From the IMG/VR virus record IMGVR_UViG_2684622670_000011, positions 1-9,613 of that record: 9,613 bases of DNA, one strand, 5' to 3'. Of this stretch, positions 3,027-8,950 are shown piece after piece. Both the position numbers and the translations under genes were made by a program. The notes under the pieces are model-generated. The model saw only the letters and a list, made by a program, of their open reading frames with translations, searched no databases and was not told where the DNA came from. The stretch comes from a virus (Duplodnaviria > Heunggongvirae > Uroviricota > Caudoviricetes). How positions within the stretch are numbered: the first letter of the stretch is position 1; each line of letters opens with the position of its first letter.

Positions 3027-3491
3027 TTATCTGAGGCATTGCTCACGAATGTATAGCTGTGCCCCTTCCAGTTGCTTCTGCATCGTCATCAATCGGTCTC
3101 TGAGAGTGAAATAATCCCGTTCAGCGGTGTCTGCCAGTCGGGGGCTGGTTGCATCATCCACGCCGGAGGAGGCGGTGGCTTCACGCACGGCTGGACAGAC
3201 TGCTCTGATGCGCAACCGACGACGACCAGCGGCAATATCATCACGCAGAGCATCATTTTCAGCTTTCGCATCAGCTAATTCCTTTGAATATTTTGCATCG
3301 AGTGCAGCAACGTCACGCTGGCGCACCTGCATATCAGTAATGATCGCCTCTGCCAGTTTCAGCTCTCTGGCATTGTCATCGCGTTGTGTTTTGTAGGTAA
3401 TGGCGTTATCGCGGTAATGATCTGTTGCCAGCCACAGAGCACTACAGACCATCAGCAGGACAATAATCACGCCATACAGAATCCGGTTCAT
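3027..3491 (-). CDS. Rz: Rz i-spanin (inner-membrane spanin subunit)
   Basis: From the ATG at 3489-3491 the translation [55 protein letters not shown]... is near-collinear with lambda Rz (…[32 protein letters not shown]…). N-terminal TM helix. The TTG at 3542 in the ORF track is an upstream alternative I do not favour. Confidence 0.9.
   Translation of the reverse strand: [154 protein letters not shown]
3089..3271 (-). CDS. Rz1: Rz1 o-spanin (outer-membrane lipoprotein), embedded in Rz in the +1 frame
   Basis: 60 aa, MRKLKMMLCVMILPLVVVGCAS...CVKPPPPPAWMMQPAPDWQTPLNGIIS, nearly identical to lambda Rz1 (MLKLKMMLCVMMLPLVVVGC…CVKPPPPPAWIMQPPPDWQTPLNGIIS). Lipobox VVGC, proline-rich stretch, fully nested inside Rz. 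Confidence 0.9.
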   Translation of the reverse strand: MRKLKMMLCVMILPLVVVGCASEQSVQPCVKPPPPPAWMMQPAPDWQTPLNGIISLSETD

Positions 3492-3492
3492 T

Positions 3493-3630
3493 TCACCACC
3501 AGCGTATCTGACCGATGAAATAACCGGAGCCCATAACCACAAACACCAGCCAGATAAGGATGAACTTCCAGGTGGATAATTTTTCAGCCATCACTCGAAT
3601 CTCCAGAATCAGTTTGCTAAAATCAAACAC
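3493..3630 (-). CDS. Small single-pass membrane peptide (45 aa from GTG; alternative 32-aa form from the ATG at 3589-3591), unknown function
   Basis: Minus strand AAAGGAGAAAAC-GTG gives a strong SD 6 nt before the GTG at 3628-3630. Product MFDFSKLILEIRVMAEKLSTWKFILIWLVFVVMGSGYFIGQIRWW has one hydrophobic helix. Stop TGA lies 1 nt before the Rz ATG. Not present at this position in lambda, where R and Rz abut. Confidence 0.4.
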   Translation of the reverse strand: MFDFSKLILEIRVMAEKLSTWKFILIWLVFVVMGSGYFIGQIRWW

Positions 3631-3656: not shown

Positions 3657-3707
3657 CAGAAAACAAAACCCCGCTTGCTGCCAACAAACGGGGTTTTTGC
3701 TTTTATT
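3657..3707. terminator. Bidirectional rho-independent terminator between endolysin and the small peptide gene
   Basis: Stem AAAACCCCG (3665-3673) pairs with CGGGGTTTT (3689-3697) around a 15-nt loop. Followed by TTTTTGCTTTTATT on the plus strand and by TTTTGTTTTCTG on the minus strand. Confidence 0.55.
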
Positions 3708-3786
3708 CACTTCCTTTTGCCAGTTTGCAGAATATCGTGTTATCCGCTTGTGTGAGCAAACGGCATTTTTCAGCAAAATATTCTGC

Positions 3787-4320
3787 TTATCTGTCGATCC
3801 CCCAGCACACCAGCGCACTCTCCTGGTCACGACGAATAACCTGACCGTAACAGTTATTTGAACGAATGCGGCAATCACGGCCACCGTCCTTAATCCACCA
3901 GCGAATCGCCTCGCATGCGCCTTTACGATCACCGGCATTCAGCCGCTTATAAAACGTCGACGGGAAACACTTACCGGGGCCAATGTTATAGGGACAAAAT
4001 GACGCAATACCTGCTTTTTGTGGTTCGGTCAGTGGTACTTTTATATTGCGATCCACCCATGCCAGCGCCTTATCACGTTCAATAGCGTTAACCTGGTCGC
4101 ATTTTTCCTTCGACAGCTTCATTCCCGGTATGACGGGCTTACCATCCACCATTGTGGCACCACGACAGATGGTCCATATGCCAGAACCATCACGGTATGC
4201 CGTTGTGTGGTTACCTTCTTTTTCATCCAGAAACTGGTCAAGTATTTGAGGAGCAGACGCGCCTGCAGCAATCAGCGCCAGAACGGCAGCTGACAGGCCG
4301 TATTTGATTTTTACGTTCAT
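3787..4320 (-). CDS. R: Phage endolysin, GH24 (T4-type) lysozyme with N-terminal signal/SAR segment
   Basis: 177 aa. E-x8-D-x5-T catalytic pattern (EGNHTTAYRDGSGIWT) typical of T4-like lysozymes. N-terminal Ala/Gly-rich hydrophobic segment GLSAAVLALIAAGASA, either a SAR domain or a cleavable signal peptide. Downstream of the pinholin. No obvious SD upstream of the ATG (AU-rich leader ATAAATATCC). Confidence 0.85.
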   Translation of the reverse strand: MNVKIKYGLSAAVLALIAAGASAPQILDQFLDEKEGNHTTAYRDGSGIWTICRGATMVDGKPVIPGMKLSKEKCDQVNAIERDKALAWVDRNIKVPLTEPQKAGIASFCPYNIGPGKCFPSTFYKRLNAGDRKGACEAIRWWIKDGGRDCRIRSNNCYGQVIRRDQESALVCWGIDR

Positions 4321-4433
4321 GGATATTTATCAGGATTTATCGGCTTCAAATCCCCGGATATGTTAAATCTTACCTCACCAGTGATGGGCACTGGCGGGAT
4401 GAGGATGTCAATCTGATAAACACAGAGGCGACT
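4321..4433 (+). promoter_or_regulatory. Intergenic region divergent between endolysin and the 86-aa plus-strand gene; probable promoter for the latter, with short direct repeats
   Basis: Contains GGATATTTATC (4321-4331) and GGATTTATC (4333-4341), with GGATAT again at 4356-4361. SD AGAGG at 4424-4428, 5 nt before the ATG at 4434. I could not assign -35/-10 hexamers confidently. Confidence 0.3.
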
Positions 4434-4694
4434 ATGGATTACACAAATCTACCAAAACAAACTTTTGCTGATTTAATCGCACTCAGGCAAGCAGTCGTAG
4501 CTCTAATCAACTTGTTGCCGGAGAAGGAAAAGGAATTAGTTAAAGCGCTTCTTAACAGAACTGCCGCCGATTTTTCATCATATCCACTGACAGATGACCT
4601 TGCGGACCTTCCTGAATTAATTGCAGCGTCCGCCAATAAGCTTACTGAAGAGATTTACCCTCCTCAAAAATCTTCACAAAATTCCTGCGAGTAA
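4434..4694 (+). CDS. Hypothetical acidic 86-aa protein, antisense to the phage late operon, with its own SD and terminator
   Basis: ATG with SD AGAGG; protein-like helical composition (MDYTNLPKQTFADLIALRQAVVALINLLPEKEKELVKALL…). A textbook intrinsic terminator sits 22 nt downstream of the stop (4717-4748). The last 53 nt overlap the 3' end of the convergent 183-aa gene. Confidence 0.5.
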   Translation: MDYTNLPKQTFADLIALRQAVVALINLLPEKEKELVKALLNRTAADFSSYPLTDDLADLPELIAASANKLTEEIYPPQKSSQNSCE

Positions 4695-5193
4695 CTTCAA
4701 TGCAATAATCGTAAAACGCCGCAAACTGCTCATCGCGGCGTTTTTTTTCATCTTCAGAAGGAATCAGCACCGACAATTTTTTATTCAGATCAGCGACGCT
4801 GCCCTCCAGTTTTTCAATGGGCGATTCAATATCATCTTTTTCTGACCGCAATGCCGTCGGTGGCGTCTTCAGAGAACCAGTAATTCTTCCCGGTAGCTTT
4901 CCTTTGTAGGTTATCCACACATTCTGCGCCTCTAAAATTATGGGGCGCTTTTCCGGCGACTGCTCATCCCCTTCACATAACCCGGCAGCAACATCCAGGA
5001 AGTCCTGTCTGATGCTCCTTCTGGCTGCTGCCTCATAAAACTCCAGCGCGGCACCTTCAACACGGTCCAGCGAGATGTCCAGGTCAAAAATTTCACCGTC
5101 AAAGTGTTTTTTGTCCCGTAAGGCTACAGTTACCGCCACTTTATTCTCAAAATTGCGAACTCCTTTCACAACCAGTTCATAGTCTTGAGTCAT
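4642..5193 (-). CDS. Hypothetical 183-aa soluble acidic protein inserted between holin and endolysin; N-terminus possibly DUF1327/YdfR-like (unverified)
   Basis: ATG at 5191-5193 lies 4 nt after the holin stop, with a purine-rich GAGAAGAGAG SD inside the holin 3' end, suggesting translational coupling to S. The ORF-track start at 5214 is a TTG overlapping the holin and is not favoured. No TM segments; charged, coiled-coil-like C-terminal half. Confidence 0.6.
   Translation of the reverse strand: MTQDYELVVKGVRNFENKVAVTVALRDKKHFDGEIFDLDISLDRVEGAALEFYEAAARRSIRQDFLDVAAGLCEGDEQSPEKRPIILEAQNVWITYKGKLPGRITGSLKTPPTALRSEKDDIESPIEKLEGSVADLNKKLSVLIPSEDEKKRRDEQFAAFYDYCIEVTRRNFVKIFEEGKSLQ
4717..4748 (+). 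terminator. Rho-independent terminator of the 86-aa plus-strand gene, embedded inside the minus-strand 183-aa CDS
   Basis: CGCCGC (4717-4722), 11-nt loop, GCGGCG (4735-4740), then T8 (4741-4748). On the minus strand the same bases encode KKRRDEQFAAFY of the 183-aa protein. Confidence 0.65.
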
Positions 5194-5197
5194 TGGA

Positions 5198-5413
5198 TTA
5201 CTCTCTTCTCGCAACCTTACGCCTGTCTTCTTTAATCTTGAAATAAAGGTTTGTCAGATACGTCAGCATGCCAAATACCAGACTACCCAATACACCTATT
5301 GCCGCCCACTGTGAGGGCGTGACTTTATCGAGCAACTGTAAAAACCAGTAGCCAGCACTGCCTGCAGAGGTGCTGTAGGCGATGCCCGTTGTTAACTTAT
5401 CCATGGATTTCAT
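5198..5413 (-). CDS. S: Class II holin, phage 21 S21-type pinholin with dual-start (antiholin/holin) motif
   Basis: 71 aa, [71 protein letters not shown], matching my recollection of S21 almost residue for residue. MKSM dual start, two TMDs, strong SD GGAGGTGA upstream of the ATG at 5411-5413. Confidence 0.9.
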
Positions 5414-5502
5414 AGCCTCACCTCCGCAGATAACGGATGGTGTACACGGTTTGGTTCGAAGAAGGAAAGAAGTTACATTAGCGTAAGGCCCGAACATCTA
5501 TT

Positions 5503-5534
5503 CAAAAAGAAAAACGCCAGCAATTATTCTGGCG
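5503..5534 (-). terminator. Rho-independent terminator downstream of the AraC-family gene
   Basis: Minus strand: CGCCAG, loop AATAATTG, CTGGCG, then TTTTTCTTTTTG; about 70 nt after the regulator stop codon. Confidence 0.5.
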
Positions 5535-5603
5535 TAGCTAAAAATATCGTATAATCTTACACTTCAAAAAATAACTTTATAAAATGCCATCACATCATAT
5601 CTT

Positions 5604-6317
5604 CTAAGAAAATCTTGATAAATATTGGTGCGGAGGCACACCAAAATATCCTCTAAAAACACTTACAAAATATGATGCATTGTCATACCCGCATATTCCC
5701 GCCACCTTGCCGACAGTATGGTTACTGTAGATCAATAATCTTTGCGCCATCATCATTCGTTCTTCAAGAATTAATTTACTAAACGATAACCCTTCATCTT
5801 CTAATTTTCTTTTTAACAAACTCTCGCTCATATATAATCTTGAAGATATATCACAAAGTCTCCATGACGCTGAGATATCCGAGTGAATAATAGCCTTAAC
5901 TTTACAACCTAAGCTATTAAGACTTCCGAACAAAAAACTTTGCACTATTTTCTCTGAAGATAAGACAGCAAGACATGCAAGTGATATTTGATTTCTAACT
6001 ACATCCACGGTTTTGCTATCACAATTCAAGCATGCAACCAAGTTCTTTAACAATGAAAAATCTTCACATTCTACTATAAAGTATGACGGATAAAACCTTC
6101 TTACAGAAAAAGGTGAGAGTGTGTAGTTTTTAAAGAAATCATTAACTGTTTTCTCCTCAACATCTACGATCATTAGATGATCTGTATTTGACGAAAAAAG
6201 ATCTTTTAAATTGTATTCAATGAGAACAGCATTTCCTTTTTTAAACAAAATATCTTCTTTACCAATTCGGACACCAAACGAGTTCAACACCAAAATGATA
6301 GAACATATGTATGGCAT
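5604..6317 (-). CDS. AraC/XylS-family transcriptional regulator, AppY/EnvY-like
   Basis: 237 aa from the ATG at 6315-6317, with SD AGGTGG 5 nt upstream (the GTG at 6326 is less likely). C-terminal AraC HTH region WRLCDISSRLYMSESLLKRKLEDEGLSFSKLILEERMMMAQRLL...GICGYDNASYFVSVFRGYFGVPPHQY aligns closely with my recollection of E. coli AppY. N-terminus MPYICSIILVLNSF resembles AppY MDYVCSVVFICQSF. Gene and flanks are visibly AT-rich. Confidence 0.8.
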   Translation of the reverse strand: MPYICSIILVLNSFGVRIGKEDILFKKGNAVLIEYNLKDLFSSNTDHLMIVDVEEKTVNDFFKNYTLSPFSVRRFYPSYFIVECEDFSLLKNLVACLNCDSKTVDVVRNQISLACLAVLSSEKIVQSFLFGSLNSLGCKVKAIIHSDISASWRLCDISSRLYMSESLLKRKLEDEGLSFSKLILEERMMMAQRLLIYSNHTVGKVAGICGYDNASYFVSVFRGYFGVPPHQYLSRFS

Positions 6318-6723
6318 ATTATCCACCTGATATCATTGGGGTTACACCAGGTAAGTATAGGTGGAAAATCAATATTCGCCAGTTCAACAATAAGGAAAAT
6401 CTCATTGCATCACAACTATAAAACCATGTGTTTAACTCACAAAAAACAAATCATTAAACTAATCTGTTATATTATAATAGCTGCGTGCAATAATAATATT
6501 ATATGCTCTTAATATTCACTTGAAATATCTTCATATAAAAACAGATTGAATAAAATCTTTTGGGGCTGGTATGTTTACCAACATTAAATTGCATCTCAAT
6601 GTTTTCTTTAGCGTGAACAGGATTTTTATAAAAACTGACACTATGAGCATCATAGCGTAGTTTTTACGATTGTAAATATCCTGCATACAGGAACTCATCA
6701 CTTTCAGATGATATCGCATACAG
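6318..6723 (-). promoter_or_regulatory. AT-rich ~400 bp intergenic region upstream of the AppY-like gene (probable promoter and silencing region)
   Basis: Very AT-rich with many TATAAT-like hexamers on both strands and no convincing ORF. Typical of upstream regions of horizontally acquired AraC-family genes. No specific promoter assigned. Confidence 0.3.
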
Positions 6724-7683
6724 TTAATTCACCATCAGTCTTAGAGCCAGTTCTTCCGGATAGGGATCGAAGTAATTCTGTGTAAGCAAGTAATCATTAG
6801 GATACTCACCCAGATAATGCTTCAGCAGAGTCAACGGCGCAAGAAGAGGCAATGTGCCAAAGCGATAGTTAAGTATAACCTCGCTCAACTCTTTACGCTG
6901 GCGTGTACTTAAGTAATTACTAAAATACCCCTGTATATGCATCAGCACATTCGTGTGATTTTTACGTGATGCTGGTTTTCTGAGAATCGCCATCAGATTA
7001 TCACGATACACCTCAAAGTATGATTCAAGGTCCGCCCACTCGTGTATTGCAGCCACAAATGGTCCCATATCTTTATAGCCTGCCTGGCTATGCGCCAACA
7101 ACTGAAGCTTATAACGACTATGAAAAGCTAATAACTCTCTTCTTGATAATTTCTCCTTGTAAAGGTGATTGAGCTCATGCAAAGCAAAAACTCTTTCAAT
7201 AAAATTCTCACGAAGCACTGGATCATGTAATCGCCCATCCTCTTCAACCGGTAGCCAGGAAAACTTTTCCATCAAAGTGCTCGTAAATAGTCCCACTCCA
7301 TCTTTACGACCTCGATTACCATTTTCATCATAGACACGCACGCGCTCCATGCCACAGCTGGGAGATTTAGCACAAACCACAAACCCCGATACATCCTTTA
7401 ATTTGTCCATATAAGAACGACTAAACTCTGTCATTCTCTCTGTCACATCCTCATTCTGGTCGTGGCTGAAACACATCTGTATATTTCCTTGCTTCGAGCG
7501 CACAAGTCGTAGAGCAGGACGCGGAACTGGCAGCCCTATAGCCATTTCCGGACATACTGGTCTGAATGTTACCCATTCCACTAATTTGTCCATTAAAAAG
7601 TCATCTCTTTTGTGACCACCATCAAAACGAACAGCAGAACCGCCCAAACAACCGCTGATCCCAATCACAGGTTTTTTTATCAT
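6724..7683 (-). CDS. Fused DUF523 (TudS-like [4Fe-4S] thio-nucleobase desulfurase) / DUF1722 (YbgA-like) protein
   Basis: 319 aa. N-terminal half has conserved cysteines in DUF523-like spacing (GISGCLGG, RPVCPEM, CAKSPSCG); C-terminal half is helical and YbgA-like. SD GGGGGAGG immediately upstream of the ATG at 7681-7683. Confidence 0.75.
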   Translation of the reverse strand: MIKKPVIGISGCLGGSAVRFDGGHKRDDFLMDKLVEWVTFRPVCPEMAIGLPVPRPALRLVRSKQGNIQMCFSHDQNEDVTERMTEFSRSYMDKLKDVSGFVVCAKSPSCGMERVRVYDENGNRGRKDGVGLFTSTLMEKFSWLPVEEDGRLHDPVLRENFIERVFALHELNHLYKEKLSRRELLAFHSRYKLQLLAHSQAGYKDMGPFVAAIHEWADLESYFEVYRDNLMAILRKPASRKNHTNVLMHIQGYFSNYLSTRQRKELSEVILNYRFGTLPLLAPLTLLKHYLGEYPNDYLLTQNYFDPYPEELALRLMVN

Positions 7684-7875
7684 TTCCTCCCCCTTGACTA
7701 ATTCATTAACACATAAACTTTGTAGTGCACGGACTAAATTGCCTTTCTGGCTTCATCACTGACAATTTTTCTGTTATTGACTATTCCTAATATAGTAGGA
7801 AAGTTCTTTAAGTGATCGGTCGTACTCATCTATCTTTCATACTTACTCTCAACTATCAAAAGTACAGGATTTATT
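7684..7875. promoter_or_regulatory. Divergent intergenic region between the DUF523/DUF1722 gene and the lipocalin gene
   Basis: 192 bp AT-rich spacer between divergently oriented starts; contains TTGACT hexamers (e.g. near 7693 and 7779) but no confidently paired -10 element. Confidence 0.3.
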
Positions 7876-8400
7876 ATGAAGTTATGGCCTGTGTTGACTG
7901 GCATTGCACTCTCTTTCACTCTTATAGCATGTAAGGCCCCGACACCACCTAAAGGTGTGCAGCCGATTACAAATTTTGACGCCAACCGCTACCTCGGAAA
8001 ATGGTATGAAATAGCTCGCCTCGAGAACTGGTTCGAACGTGGTCTGGAACAGGTCAGCGCTACTTATGAAAAACGGAACGACGGAGGGATTCGCGTACTT
8101 AACCGTGGATACGATCCAACGAAAAACAAATGGAGCGAGAGCGAAGGTAAAGCATACTTTACTGGAGATACTAAAACTGCAGCGTTGAAAGTTTCGTTTT
8201 TTGGCCCCTTCTATGGTGGCTATAATGTAATCAAACTGGATGATGAGTATAAGTATGCTCTTGTCAGTGGTCCGAACAGAGAATACCTATGGATTCTGGC
8301 AAGGACCCAAACTATTCCAGATAATGTAAAAGCAGACTATGTGCGTACCGCTCAAAAGTTGGGATTCAATGTCAATGAACTATTATGGGTTAATCAATAA
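7876..8400 (+). CDS. blc: Bacterial lipocalin Blc-like outer-membrane lipoprotein
   Basis: 174 aa. Signal peptide with lipobox LIAC then CKAPTPPKG. NFDANRYLGKWYEIARLENWFERGLEQV, SEGKAYFTGD, ALKVSFFGPFYGGYNVI and YLWILART blocks match E. coli Blc motifs (roughly half or more of residues identical by eye). SD AGGA 6 nt upstream of the ATG. Confidence 0.85.
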   Translation: MKLWPVLTGIALSFTLIACKAPTPPKGVQPITNFDANRYLGKWYEIARLENWFERGLEQVSATYEKRNDGGIRVLNRGYDPTKNKWSESEGKAYFTGDTKTAALKVSFFGPFYGGYNVIKLDDEYKYALVSGPNREYLWILARTQTIPDNVKADYVRTAQKLGFNVNELLWVNQ

Positions 8401-8555: not shown

Positions 8556-8933
8556 TTATTTCGAACAATCAGCATCCATCTCCAATCGGAGATCCAACAC
8601 CATCAGCATGCCCTCCACTACGCCCTCAGCTTTCTGGAGCATCCTGCCAACCCAACAATCAGATCGCCCATGCTTACGTGCAAGCGCCATAAAAGTCATG
8701 CCGCCGACATAATAGTCCACCAATAAATCATGTAAATCGCTGTTGTTTTTTTTCAGGCGAGCCATACATTCACAAATGATCATCGCGTCATCGTCACAGC
8801 ATTGCGGACGAGATCTTACTTTTGAAGGAATTAATCCCTTAAAACCGGCGGCAATGGACGACCAGGTCACATCTTCATGATTATTAGCCGCCCATGCCCC
8901 CCAACGCTCAAGAACCATCTGAATATCACGCAT
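8556..8933 (-). CDS. Q: Late-gene antiterminator Q (phage 82 / DLP12 QuuD type)
   Basis: 125 aa from the ATG at 8931-8933 (SD GGAG upstream; the ORF-track start at 8948 is a TTG). [35 protein letters not shown]...[32 protein letters not shown] matches my recollection of E. coli QuuD closely. Confidence 0.85.
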
Positions 8934-8950
8934 CAACTTACTCCACAAAA

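What the first reader, a model, noticed from the sequence alone, without database searches (positions are those of the whole stretch)
4321..5197. Two-gene insertion splitting the pinholin–endolysin pair: a holin-coupled 183-aa protein and a convergent antisense 86-aa gene
In phage 21 and lambda the holin and endolysin genes abut. Here about 880 bp are inserted between them. The 183-aa gene starts 4 nt after the S stop with its SD inside S, so it should be made in step with holin. The 86-aa gene is on the opposite strand with its own SD and its own intrinsic terminator, and its 3' end overlaps the 183-aa gene by 53 nt. The endolysin is thereby displaced about 320 nt from the upstream gene and has no recognisable SD. 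I recognise neither protein with confidence; the N-terminus of the 183-aa protein vaguely recalls DUF1327/YdfR-type proteins found between holin and lysozyme in E. coli Qin, but this is unverified. Candidate roles are lysis-timing control, superinfection exclusion or abortive-infection, or a toxin/antitoxin-like pair regulated by convergent transcription.
Basis: partly seen in the sequence, partly recalled or inferred. Interest (0 to 1): 0.7.

Follow-up and report, generated by a model that had tools for sequence, protein, structure and literature searches.

The report
Antisense small-gene slot beside prophage endolysin
The stretch between the holin and endolysin genes of this E. coli prophage holds a YdfR-family late gene and, on the other strand, a self-contained small gene that is one of at least five interchangeable small genes found at this spot; it is common, already annotated and of unknown function.

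Summary
The 183-aa protein is a DUF1327/YdfR protein. Its first 74 residues are 82% identical to K-12 YdfR, which a 2026 paper showed binds the catalytic half of RNase E. The 86-aa ORF is a real gene (PHROG 2572, "hypothetical protein" in RefSeq), with 93-aa homologues at 38-55% identity in Salmonella prophages and metagenomes.

It is not a one-off two-gene insertion. In every context the small gene converges on, and overlaps by 53-59 nt, a late-strand gene ending in a conserved helical tail. That tail is free-standing (73 aa) in Salmonella and fused to DUF1327 here.

The small gene sits behind an invariant block, ATATTTATCAGGnTTTATC, followed 17 nt later by TATGTT, which abuts the endolysin start. 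In other E. coli prophages the same block precedes four other unrelated small acidic ORFs. One of them is in 1112 of 5426 complete genomes; this allele is in 311.

My best reading is a hypervariable antisense moron slot. The small gene would be expressed from the prophage and silenced by late transcription. Its function is unknown, and no defence, toxin-antitoxin or anti-CRISPR membership is supported. Interest is moderate.

The parts
5198..5413 (-). S21-type pinholin gene (71 codons) with the dual-start motif M-K-S-M. The ORF listing extends the ORF to 5497.
   Evidence: PF04971 8.9e-34. PHROG holin families. Sequence read.
4858..5193 (-). DUF1327/YdfR N-terminal part (residues 1-112) of the 183-aa late protein. 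The start lies 4 nt after the holin stop, with a GAGAG Shine-Dalgarno inside S.
   Evidence: Pfam PF07041, 139.6 bits against a cut-off of 25. 82% identity over residues 1-74 to K-12 YdfR. The AF2 model gives a beta-beta-beta-alpha domain at pLDDT 66-81.
4642..4845 (-). Helical C-terminal tail of the 183-aa protein (residues 117-183, SEKDD...KKRRDEQFAAFYDYCIEVTRRNFVKIFEEGKSLQ), stop codon included.
   Evidence: Homologous to a free-standing 73-aa Salmonella protein and to the tails of 144-aa and 243-aa proteins. All of them converge on a homologue of the 86-aa gene. Raw pN/pS outside the overlap is 0.38-0.51.
4434..4694 (+). Antisense gene for an 86-aa acidic protein (pI 4.6) predicted as three helices (PHROG 2572).
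   Evidence: phrog_2572 4.4e-53. Homologues at 38-55% identity. AF2 three-helix bundle at pLDDT 76. Only this frame stays open in all lineages. Charge and pI.
4323..4364 (+). Invariant block ATATTTATCAGGATTTATC (two ATTTATC repeats) holding a -35-like TTTATC (4336-4341), a 17-nt spacer and a -10-like TATGTT (4359-4364). This is the predicted promoter of the antisense gene. It abuts the endolysin start codon.
   Evidence: Invariant across lineages whose coding sequence has diverged to 38% identity, including loci with no endolysin alongside. At least 120 IMG/VR contigs carry it. The -10-like hexamer is kept in 59 of 59 cargo-bearing sequences against 20 of 39 without cargo.
4378..4394 (+). Leader hairpin CCAGTG-ATGGG-CACTGG in the predicted 5' UTR. 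Its right edge is a recurrent recombination breakpoint.
   Evidence: Fold. The GCCAGTGGTGGGCACTGGC version is shared by alleles A, D and E, and F has a close variant. Homology to other alleles ends at 4364 or 4396.
4424..4428 (+). Shine-Dalgarno AGAGG, 5 nt before the ATG of the 86-aa gene.
   Evidence: Read. The homologues have TAAGGA at the same place.
4713..4748 (+). Intrinsic terminator of the antisense gene (10-bp stem, 12-nt loop, T8), embedded in the codons K-R-R-D-E...A-A-F of the late gene. On the - strand it also forms a 12-bp hairpin followed by UUUUAC.
   Evidence: -14.6 kcal/mol, z = -3.0. The stem pairs in 100% of cells across three lineages, with one compensatory G-C to A-U pair. 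The 15-nt 5' arm is absent from the 296-aa ydfR allele that lacks the antisense gene.
4642..4694 (.). The 53-nt convergent overlap of the two coding sequences.
   Evidence: The overlap is 59 nt in the Salmonella and metagenome homologues.
3787..4320 (-). Endolysin of 177 aa. The hydrophobic N-terminus suggests the phage-21 SAR type. It has no Shine-Dalgarno, and its leader is the reverse complement of the promoter block.
   Evidence: PF00959 1.2e-24. The leader is shared with prophages that lack the antisense gene.

Best explanation
The 877 bp between holin and endolysin are one allele of a polymorphic accessory slot in phage-21-type lysis cassettes.

On the late strand lies a YdfR-family gene. 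It is translated in step with the pinholin. Its N-terminal beta-beta-beta-alpha domain is the RNase E-binding part of K-12 YdfR. Here it is fused to a 67-residue helical tail.

On the other strand lies a complete transcription unit of the moron type:
- a sigma-70-like promoter that abuts the endolysin start codon (-35-like TTTATC, 17 nt, -10-like TATGTT);
- a leader of about 60 nt with a hairpin;
- a Shine-Dalgarno;
- the 86-aa ORF;
- an intrinsic terminator buried in the late gene's codons.

Shown here: the anatomy, the reality of the small gene, the physical linkage to the tail, and the interchangeability of the cargo.

Inferred:
- The small gene is transcribed from the repressed prophage and on DNA entry.
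- Q-driven late transcription running head-on through its promoter and body silences it.
- Its small, acidic, helical, enzyme-free product works by binding another protein, in a phage-host or phage-phage conflict.
- It is not part of the lysis machinery proper.
For: Identity of the late gene:
- Pfam, PHROG and BLAST results.
- RNase E binding by YdfR residues 1-72 and co-purifying RNA (PMC13232886).

The small gene is real:
- Homologues at 38-55% identity keep the length, start and Shine-Dalgarno.
- The shadow frame on the - strand is broken by a stop in the Salmonella allele L093, while the + frame is open everywhere.
- Only in-frame indels are seen.
- Raw pN/pS is 0.4-0.5, equal to that of the YdfR N-domain.

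It is an autonomous unit:
- The promoter-like block is invariant even in Salmonella and L100, where no endolysin is adjacent.
- The -10-like hexamer is retained in 59 of 59 cargo-bearing sequences against 20 of 39 cargo-less ones.
- The terminator hairpin is kept in three lineages with one compensatory change.
- The hairpin is missing from the otherwise near-identical (about 89%) 296-aa allele, which has no antisense gene.
- The cassette is 41-42% GC against 49-51% in the flanks.

The cassette is mobile and linked to the tail. It always converges by 53-59 nt on the conserved tail, in three contexts:
- after Rz and before terS in Salmonella;
- downstream of Q in L100;
- between ydfR and R in E. 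coli.

The slot is polymorphic:
- Five cargo families, PHROGs 2572, 2411, 18136, 1853 and 25324, sit behind the same block.
- hhalign found no homology among three of them, A, C and D.
- All are 86-104 aa with pI 4.5-5.8.
- Locus L164 has the window's flanks at 89% and 97% identity, with 4397-5032 replaced by a different cargo.

Plaque-forming or inducible phages carry the module.
Against: - No transcription data were available. The promoter matches consensus at only 3 of 6 and 4 of 6 positions and was not picked up by the scanner.
- In E. coli the block's conservation is confounded by its being the endolysin's translation-initiation region.
- 19 of 39 cargo-less sequences also keep TATGTT.
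- The covariation support for the terminator is a single pair in closely related sequences. 25 of 500 shuffles reach the observed covariation score.
- Substitution patterns cannot separate the + ORF from the - strand shadow ORF, because the two share third codon positions.
- The strict linkage to the tail could mean a two-protein system rather than an independent moron.
Confidence: 0.55

Rival explanations
1. Cognate two-protein pair, in the manner of toxin and antitoxin or effector and immunity. The prophage-expressed 86-aa protein would bind and neutralise the helical tail, and hence the YdfR-long late protein. That would protect the lysogen from leaky late expression, or turn the pair into an abortive or exclusion device when a related phage infects.
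For: - The small gene and the tail are never found apart in three diverged lineages and three genomic positions. The tail is a free-standing 73-aa gene in Salmonella.
- The two have co-diverged as a unit: the small protein down to 37% identity and the tail down to 22%.
- The genome counts almost coincide, 311 against 314.
Against: - The physical overlap alone enforces co-inheritance.
- The other cargo families (C, D, F) pair with quite different ydfR ends, or with a 72-aa stub.
- The genes are convergent, not co-transcribed.
- There are no PADLOC hits.
- Overproduced K-12 YdfR was not toxic (PMC13232886), although that protein lacks this tail.
- Both partners are acidic.
- No complex prediction could be run.
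Confidence: 0.15
2. RNA-level control of late genes. Convergent transcription and the antisense RNA would damp ydfR and endolysin expression or set lysis timing. The antisense RNA is about 380 nt, is complementary to the ydfR 3' end and covers the whole spacer before R. The closest parallel is lambda OOP RNA acting on cII. The bidirectional hairpin would insulate R from read-through. The encoded protein would be secondary.
For: - The unit lies wholly inside the late transcript, between ydfR and R.
- The overlap of 53-59 nt is conserved.
- The hairpin is at least as stable on the - strand (-19 kcal/mol) and is followed by UUUUAC.
- The promoter abuts the R start codon.
- The fused YdfR domain binds RNase E and co-purifies with RNA.
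Against: - The protein sequence is under purifying selection, and the ORF length is kept at 38% identity.
- Five unrelated protein-coding cargos use the same promoter. That points to the proteins, not one RNA.
- The cassette also works next to terS or Q, with no endolysin nearby.
- Many working cassettes have no cargo.
- Q-modified late transcription should swamp a weak promoter.
Confidence: 0.12
3. Anti-defence gene locus of the anti-CRISPR type. A fixed promoter would drive interchangeable small acidic inhibitors of host immune systems, made on DNA entry.
For: - Conserved promoter plus leader with at least five unrelated acidic ORFs of 86-104 aa at a fixed site in the late region.
- AcrIIC4 is the top Foldseek PDB hit. 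It is also a colinear hmmsearch hit (query 25-86 on chain 20-83), but only at E = 0.12.
Against: - The AcrIIC4 similarity is not significant: Foldseek E = 3.4 and hhalign probability 8.8%.
- From general knowledge, E. coli and Salmonella have no type II-C CRISPR-Cas.
- No Aca-like regulator gene is adjacent.
- The genes are retained in old cryptic prophages such as Qin of strain HS, where an anti-defence gene would have little use.
Confidence: 0.1
4. The 86-aa ORF is not a gene. On this view the region is the decayed 3' half of a longer ydfR, and the ORF, Shine-Dalgarno and hairpin are accidents.
For: - A 296-aa ydfR allele fills the same space.
- Substitution counts between E. coli alleles are too few to be informative: 13-16 differences, pN/pS 0.4-0.7.
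- The PhiR63_1 and 2H10 GenBank records do not annotate the ORF.
Against: - The C-terminal half of the 296-aa allele shows no similarity to this region on either strand.
- Homologues at 38-55% identity keep the ORF, start, Shine-Dalgarno and terminator in unrelated genomic contexts.
- Only in-frame indels are seen.
- AF2 gives a moderately confident fold from a shallow alignment.
Confidence: 0.04

Closest known systems
YdfR of the cryptic prophage Qin, E. coli K-12 (P76160; Pfam DUF1327/PF07041)
   Same: - Same position, 4 nt after an S21-type holin stop.
- 82% identity over residues 1-74. This is the segment shown to bind the RNase E catalytic half and to co-purify with RNA (PMC13232886).
   Different: - K-12 YdfR is 103 aa, and its stop overlaps the rrrQ start. 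It has no antisense gene and no helical tail.
- The window's protein is 183 aa. It has an extra middle segment and the conserved tail, and it ends 321 nt before the endolysin.
Morons of lambdoid phages (promoter-gene-terminator units set into late operons, e.g. lambda bor on the opposite strand after Rz; concept from the HK97/HK022 comparisons). From general knowledge.
   Same: - Own promoter-like site, own terminator and lower G+C than the flanks.
- Sits between genes that are adjacent in relatives.
- Opposite in orientation to the late operon.
   Different: - Lies inside the lysis cassette.
- Overlaps the 3' end of a late gene by 53 nt, with its terminator inside that gene's codons.
- Shares one promoter and leader with at least four alternative cargos.
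- Expression from the prophage was not shown.
Hotspots of variable cargo in prophages, e.g. the P2/P4 hotspots of antiviral systems (PMC9122126), and anti-CRISPR loci of Mu-like Pseudomonas phages (the latter from general knowledge)
   Same: A fixed site flanked by conserved phage genes, with unrelated interchangeable genes and sharp recombination breakpoints.
   Different: - The cargo here is a single ORF of 86-104 aa with no recognisable defence domain, and PADLOC gives nothing for the 86-aa protein.
- There is no regulator gene.
- The slot is antisense to the operon and convergent on it.
Lambda OOP antisense RNA against cII (convergent transcript overlapping the cII 3' end by about 50 nt, RNase III-dependent). 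From general knowledge.
   Same: A convergent unit whose 3' end overlaps the 3' end of a phage gene by a similar length, ending at an intrinsic terminator inside that gene.
   Different: OOP is a 77-nt non-coding RNA. Here the transcript encodes a conserved protein, and no RNase III involvement is known.
Anti-CRISPR AcrIIC4 (PDB 7f7p, 8hns)
   Same: About 88 aa, helical and prophage-borne. It is the best PDB match by both fold and profile, and the match is colinear.
   Different: The scores are not significant (E = 3.4, E = 0.12, hhalign probability 8.8%). It is treated as a lead only.
Phage 21 lysis cassette (S21 pinholin, R21 SAR endolysin, Rz/Rz1)
   Same: The holin family and the MKSM dual start, a lysozyme with a hydrophobic N-terminus, and Rz1 embedded in Rz.
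   Different: In phage 21 the S and R genes abut (general knowledge). Here 877 bp lie between them.

Membership tests
DUF1327 / YdfR family | Match to PF07041 above the gathering score | tested here: met
   139.6 bits against a cut-off of 25, residues 1-112. Full-length match to phrog_2091, 183 of 183 positions.
DUF1327 / YdfR family | Gene lies directly downstream of a class II (S21-type) holin in a lambdoid late operon | tested here: met
   A 4-nt gap to the holin stop, as for essQ-ydfR in K-12.
DUF1327 / YdfR family | N-terminal domain binds the RNase E catalytic half and co-purifies with RNA (shown for K-12 YdfR only) | not testable with these tools
   82% identity over residues 1-74. The experiment is in PMC13232886.
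Moron (autonomous transcription unit in a late operon) | Own promoter | tested here: inconclusive
   TTTATC, 17 nt, TATGTT is invariant across lineages and correlates with the presence of cargo. The consensus match is weak, the scanner did not call it, and there are no transcript data.
Moron (autonomous transcription unit in a late operon) | Own factor-independent terminator | tested here: met
   Hairpin plus T8 at 4713-4748, z = -3.0. Conserved with one compensatory pair. Absent where the gene is absent. This is a prediction, not a measured 3' end.
Moron (autonomous transcription unit in a late operon) | Lies between genes that are adjacent in related phages, and has a deviant base composition | tested here: met
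   In K-12, ydfR overlaps rrrQ. In O157 prophages the gap is 50 nt. The cassette is 41.8% GC against 49-51% in the flanks.
Moron (autonomous transcription unit in a late operon) | Expressed from the repressed prophage | not testable with these tools
   No expression data could be found.
Toxin-antitoxin or known anti-phage defence system | Match to a known toxin, antitoxin or defence protein model | tested here: not met
   PADLOC, NCBIfam and Pfam give nothing for either protein beyond DUF1327.
Toxin-antitoxin or known anti-phage defence system | Toxicity of one partner, relieved by the other | not testable with these tools
   The only indirect datum is that K-12 YdfR overproduction gave no growth defect. 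That protein lacks the tail.
Anti-CRISPR AcrIIC4 family | Significant sequence or fold similarity to AcrIIC4 | tested here: not met
   Foldseek E = 3.4 with TM 0.34. hmmsearch E = 0.12. hhalign probability 8.8%.
Phage-21-type pinholin / SAR-endolysin cassette | PF04971 holin with dual start, lysozyme with an N-terminal signal-anchor-release segment, Rz with embedded Rz1 | tested here: met
   Pfam hits. MKSM start and the G/A-rich hydrophobic N-terminus MNVKIKYGLSAAVLALIAAGASAP were read. Rz is at 3027-3542 and Rz1 at 3089-3271. SAR behaviour itself was not tested.

The most novel reading that the evidence does not exclude
The interval next to the endolysin start in E. coli and Salmonella lambdoid prophages would be an unrecognised reservoir of small protein inhibitors. 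One conserved promoter and leader would drive interchangeable acidic proteins of 86-104 aa, at least five families, present in well over a quarter of E. coli genomes. Each would target a different host or phage factor. The window's member would work as a cognate pair with the helical tail that is fused here to an RNase E-binding domain. The convergent layout would act as a built-in switch, so that the inhibitor is made in the lysogen and shut off by late transcription.
Probability: 0.2. Interest if true: 0.7.

Novelty: new member of a known kind. Interest (0 to 1): 0.45.

Why it matters
For annotation, the locus is routinely mishandled. RefSeq flags intact long ydfR genes as truncated pseudogenes because they overlap the small gene. 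Two of the three phage records examined omit the small gene altogether.

For biology, the lysis cassette of very common E. coli prophages contains a fixed promoter with swappable small genes of unknown role. That gives a compact, testable set of candidates for prophage-encoded inhibitors or exclusion factors. Natural isogenic allele swaps already exist, for example this window against locus L164.

The locus also links a protein domain recently shown to bind RNase E to a family of variable C-terminal modules. This may help explain what YdfR does during phage late development.

Tried and rejected
- Is the 86-aa ORF a shadow of a decayed long ydfR? The 296-aa allele's C-terminal half shows no similarity to the region on either strand. 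Rejected.
- dN/dS between E. coli alleles. There are only 13-16 substitutions, and the - strand shadow ORF 4439-4636 shares third codon positions, so the test cannot discriminate. Deeper homologues were used instead.
- The AcrIIC4 lead failed hhalign.
- The "DUF1823" label in the PhiR phage records corresponds to a sub-threshold Pfam hit only: E = 0.024-0.13, 12.9 bits for the window protein against a cut-off of 25.
- A hit to a 975-aa TPR/CHAT protein (P0140) reflects repeat-like helical composition, not homology.
- Homology among cargo families A, C and D: hhalign probabilities of 1.2% or less.
- Rfam found nothing above chance in 3700-5700.
- No second copy of the invariant block exists in the window or in the whole PhiR63_1 genome. 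It is therefore not a dispersed operator.
- "Pseudogene" ydfR calls in strain HS and others were checked, and the ORFs are intact.
- Literature searches for DUF1327, the PhiR phages, and lysis-cassette morons or hotspots found nothing on this locus. The genome-contig scan returned only one locus.
Full report
**Setting.** The window is the late region of a Qin-like lambdoid prophage, read on the - strand. The gene order is:
- a DUF968 gene and Q (8556-8948);
- three cargo genes: a lipocalin on the + strand, a YbgA-like gene and an AraC/YdeO-like regulator;
- an S21-type holin;
- the 183-aa gene, with the 86-aa gene on the + strand;
- the endolysin, and Rz with Rz1 embedded;
- a DUF1441 protein at the small-terminase position and the large terminase.

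**The observation.**
- The holin stops at 5198-5200. The 183-aa gene starts 4 nt later, at 5193, with GAGAG inside S.
- The 86-aa ORF runs 4434-4694 with AGAGG 5 nt upstream. The two overlap by 53 nt.
- A hairpin plus T8 lies at 4713-4748. It folds at -14.6 kcal/mol with z = -3.0. The consensus scanner missed it only because of its 12-nt loop.
- The endolysin starts 321 nt below the 183-aa stop and has no Shine-Dalgarno.

**What the 183-aa protein is.**
- It matches DUF1327 at 3.9e-41 and PHROG 2091 over its full length.
- RefSeq calls close relatives "YdfR family protein" and the small ORF "hypothetical protein".
- Residues 1-74 are 82% identical to K-12 YdfR.
- A 2026 study found YdfR in a two-hybrid screen and confirmed by co-purification that it binds the N-terminal catalytic half of RNase E. 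Residues 1-72 are sufficient. RNA co-purifies with it, and overproduction is not toxic and changes few transcripts (PMC13232886).
- The family is modular. Members of 103, 114-116, 169-211, 243 and 268-296 aa share the N-terminal domain and differ after about residue 70 or 115.

**Is the 86-aa ORF a gene?**
- Length alone proves nothing, because the window has longer spurious ORFs.
- Substitutions between the E. coli alleles are too few to help (13-16). They are also uninformative because a shadow ORF on the - strand (4439-4636) shares third codon positions.
- The exhaustive HMMER search, and a profile search after it, found homologues of 89-93 aa at 38-55% identity in Salmonella enterica and in metagenomes.
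- In all of these the + frame is open and has ATG or GTG with a Shine-Dalgarno. The shadow frame is broken by a stop in the Salmonella allele L093 and lacks a consistent start.
- Length variants differ only by 6-nt indels.
- Raw pN/pS at depth is 0.42-0.53, the same as for the YdfR N-domain at 0.55.
- AF2 predicts a three-helix bundle at pLDDT 76 from a shallow alignment. The protein is acidic, with pI 4.6.
- I conclude that it is a real protein-coding gene.

**The pair is a mobile cassette.** In every context found, the small gene converges on a late-strand gene and overlaps its 3' end by 53-59 nt. The last roughly 40-70 residues of that gene are homologous to the tail here. Three arrangements occur:
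- In Salmonella Gifsy-like prophages the tail is a free-standing 73-aa gene between Rz and the DUF1441 terminase-small-subunit gene.
- In L100 it ends a 144-aa protein downstream of Q.
- In E. coli it ends DUF1327 proteins of 169-243 aa.

The tail evolves under constraint outside the overlap, with pN/pS of 0.38-0.51. In complete E. coli genomes, 311 of 5426 carry at least 80% of segment 4321-4641 and 314 carry segment 4642-4860. Among the fetched loci that carry the small gene, 66 have both ORFs intact. A second allele, with the small protein at 38% identity, sits in the same S-R slot in six genomes. Functional phages carry the module: PhiR63_1, 2H10, the PhiR12 series and PhiR5_1.

**Signals of an autonomous unit.**
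- The most conserved element is non-coding: ATATTTATCAGGnTTTATC (window 4323-4341), then 17 nt, then TATGTT (TATTGT in Salmonella).
- It is invariant in lineages whose coding sequence has diverged to 38% identity. That includes Salmonella and L100, where no endolysin lies beside it.
- It reads as a -35-like TTTATC, a 17-nt spacer and a -10-like hexamer with the key A2 and T6.
- The predicted start is near 4371, giving a leader of about 60 nt with a hairpin.
- The terminator stem pairs in all seven sequences of three lineages, with one compensatory G-C to A-U change that alters both encoded residues. This is suggestive only.
- The 296-aa ydfR allele has no antisense gene and is about 89% identical to the window from the holin stop to about 4703. 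It lacks exactly the 15 nt that make the 5' arm (AAAACGCCGCGATGA) and reads GCTGCG instead of GCGGCG. The hairpin therefore exists only where the small gene does.
- The cassette is 41-42% GC against 49-51% for its neighbours.

**A hypervariable slot.** Scanning IMG/VR for the invariant block returned at least 120 contigs. Most lack the 86-aa gene.
- Downstream of the same block and leader they carry other ORFs with their own Shine-Dalgarno and ATG. These are a 90-aa family (MDNNTISLQELLD...), an 87-91-aa family, a 104-aa family and a 98-aa family. Each points towards the 3' end of a ydfR variant or a tail-like gene. The 90-aa and 87-aa families overlap it, and the other two stop 10-25 nt short.
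- They belong to PHROGs 2411, 18136, 1853 and 25324, all of unknown function and without Pfam hits.
- hhalign found no homology among the three families compared, A, C and D.
- All are acidic and soluble.
- The 90-aa family alone is in 1112 of 5426 complete genomes.
- All 59 distinct cargo-bearing sequences keep the -10-like hexamer, against 20 of 39 without cargo. These counts are not corrected for phylogeny.
- Breakpoints against the window cluster at 4364 or 4396 on the left and 4703-5033 on the right.
- Locus L164 matches the window's flanks, at 97% on the holin and AraC-gene side and 89% on the endolysin side. There, 4397-5032 is replaced by the 98-aa cargo and a 72-aa ydfR stub.

**The endolysin.** Its last 9 nt before the start (ATAAATATC) are shared with K-12 rrrQ. 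There ydfR overlaps the start, and no Shine-Dalgarno exists either. O157-type prophages have the same 51-nt leader with a 50-nt gap after a 114-aa ydfR. The lack of a Shine-Dalgarno is therefore a trait of this endolysin family, not an effect of the insertion.

**Mechanism.**
- Shown: the anatomy, the reality of the small gene, its linkage to the tail, and the interchangeability of the cargo.
- Inferred: the small gene is a moron transcribed from the repressed prophage and on DNA entry. Head-on, Q-modified late transcription shuts it off. Its product acts by binding another protein in a phage-host or phage-phage conflict.
- The main rivals are a cognate inhibitor-effector pair with the tail, an OOP-like antisense control of ydfR and R, an anti-defence locus, and a non-gene. 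The evidence for and against each is given under the rival explanations.
- No defence, toxin-antitoxin or anti-CRISPR membership is supported.

**Novelty.** Both proteins are catalogued. The arrangement is best described as a new member of the moron and hotspot kind. I found no paper describing the antisense slot. Interest is moderate.

Noticed in passing
window 5604-8400: Three cargo genes lie between Q and the holin: a Blc-like lipocalin on the + strand (7876-8400), a YbgA-like protein with 2-thiouracil desulfurase and DUF1722 domains (6724-7683), and an AraC-family regulator closest to YdeO, GadX and HilD (5604-6326). A terminator-like hairpin at 5514-5535 (- strand) sits just upstream of the holin. 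The same set is found in E. coli HS at the Qin locus.
   Followed up: partly
L001 5657-5992 (E. coli HS); L103 4522-4818; L010 and L011: RefSeq annotates the long ydfR genes as pseudogenes "missing C-terminus", yet the ORFs are intact: 183, 243 and 169 aa in the loci checked. This appears to be an artefact of the convergent overlap with the small gene.
   Followed up: yes
L003 6001-6258 (PhiR63_1); L005 2967-3224 (phage 2H10): The 86-aa gene is not annotated in these two GenBank phage records. In the PhiR12 and PhiR5 records it is labelled "DUF1823 containing protein", which corresponds only to a sub-threshold Pfam hit.
   Followed up: yes
window 4439-4636 (- strand): A 65-aa shadow ORF lies antisense to the 86-aa gene in the frame that shares third codon positions. 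It stays largely open in all lineages, so codon-position statistics cannot tell the two strands apart.
   Followed up: yes
window 4318-4350 (- strand): A 10-codon mini-ORF (TTG AAG CCG ATA AAT CCT GAT AAA TAT CCA TGA) ends in an ATGA overlap with the endolysin start. It is in the frame that ydfR uses in K-12. It looks like a remnant of the ancestral ydfR 3' end, and it could conceivably allow coupled initiation.
   Followed up: no
window 4385-4411 (- strand reading CATCCCGCCAGTGCCCATCACTGGTGAGGTAAG): By eye the leader hairpin region resembles lambda operator half-sites (TATCACCGCCAGTGGTA and TACCTCTGGCGGTGATA, recalled from memory). A perfect TTGACA also lies on the - strand at 4409-4414, with no matching -10. 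This is probably coincidence.
   Followed up: no
L105/L106 2501-3391; P0068, P0114: The 268-296-aa ydfR alleles carry an extra C-terminal domain of about 120 aa (PHROGs 36381 and 26186) of unknown function in place of the antisense gene. L114 has that domain plus a tail-like segment as a 213-aa protein without the DUF1327 part.
   Followed up: partly
L012 2347-3560; L104 1094-3401: Insertion sequences (IS3 family, IS21 family) have landed inside the slot in some genomes. In L012 the insertion disrupts the small gene.
   Followed up: no
L008 and L009, between the lysozyme gene and the DUF1327 pseudogene: About 1 kb of unannotated DNA lies between a partial DUF1327 gene and the endolysin in some O-antigen-diverse strains. 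It may hold further slot alleles.
   Followed up: no
window 4695-4752 (- strand): On the late strand the terminator sequence folds into an even more stable 12-bp hairpin (-19 kcal/mol) followed by UUUUACGAUUAUU. It could stop non-antiterminated read-through before the endolysin.
   Followed up: partly
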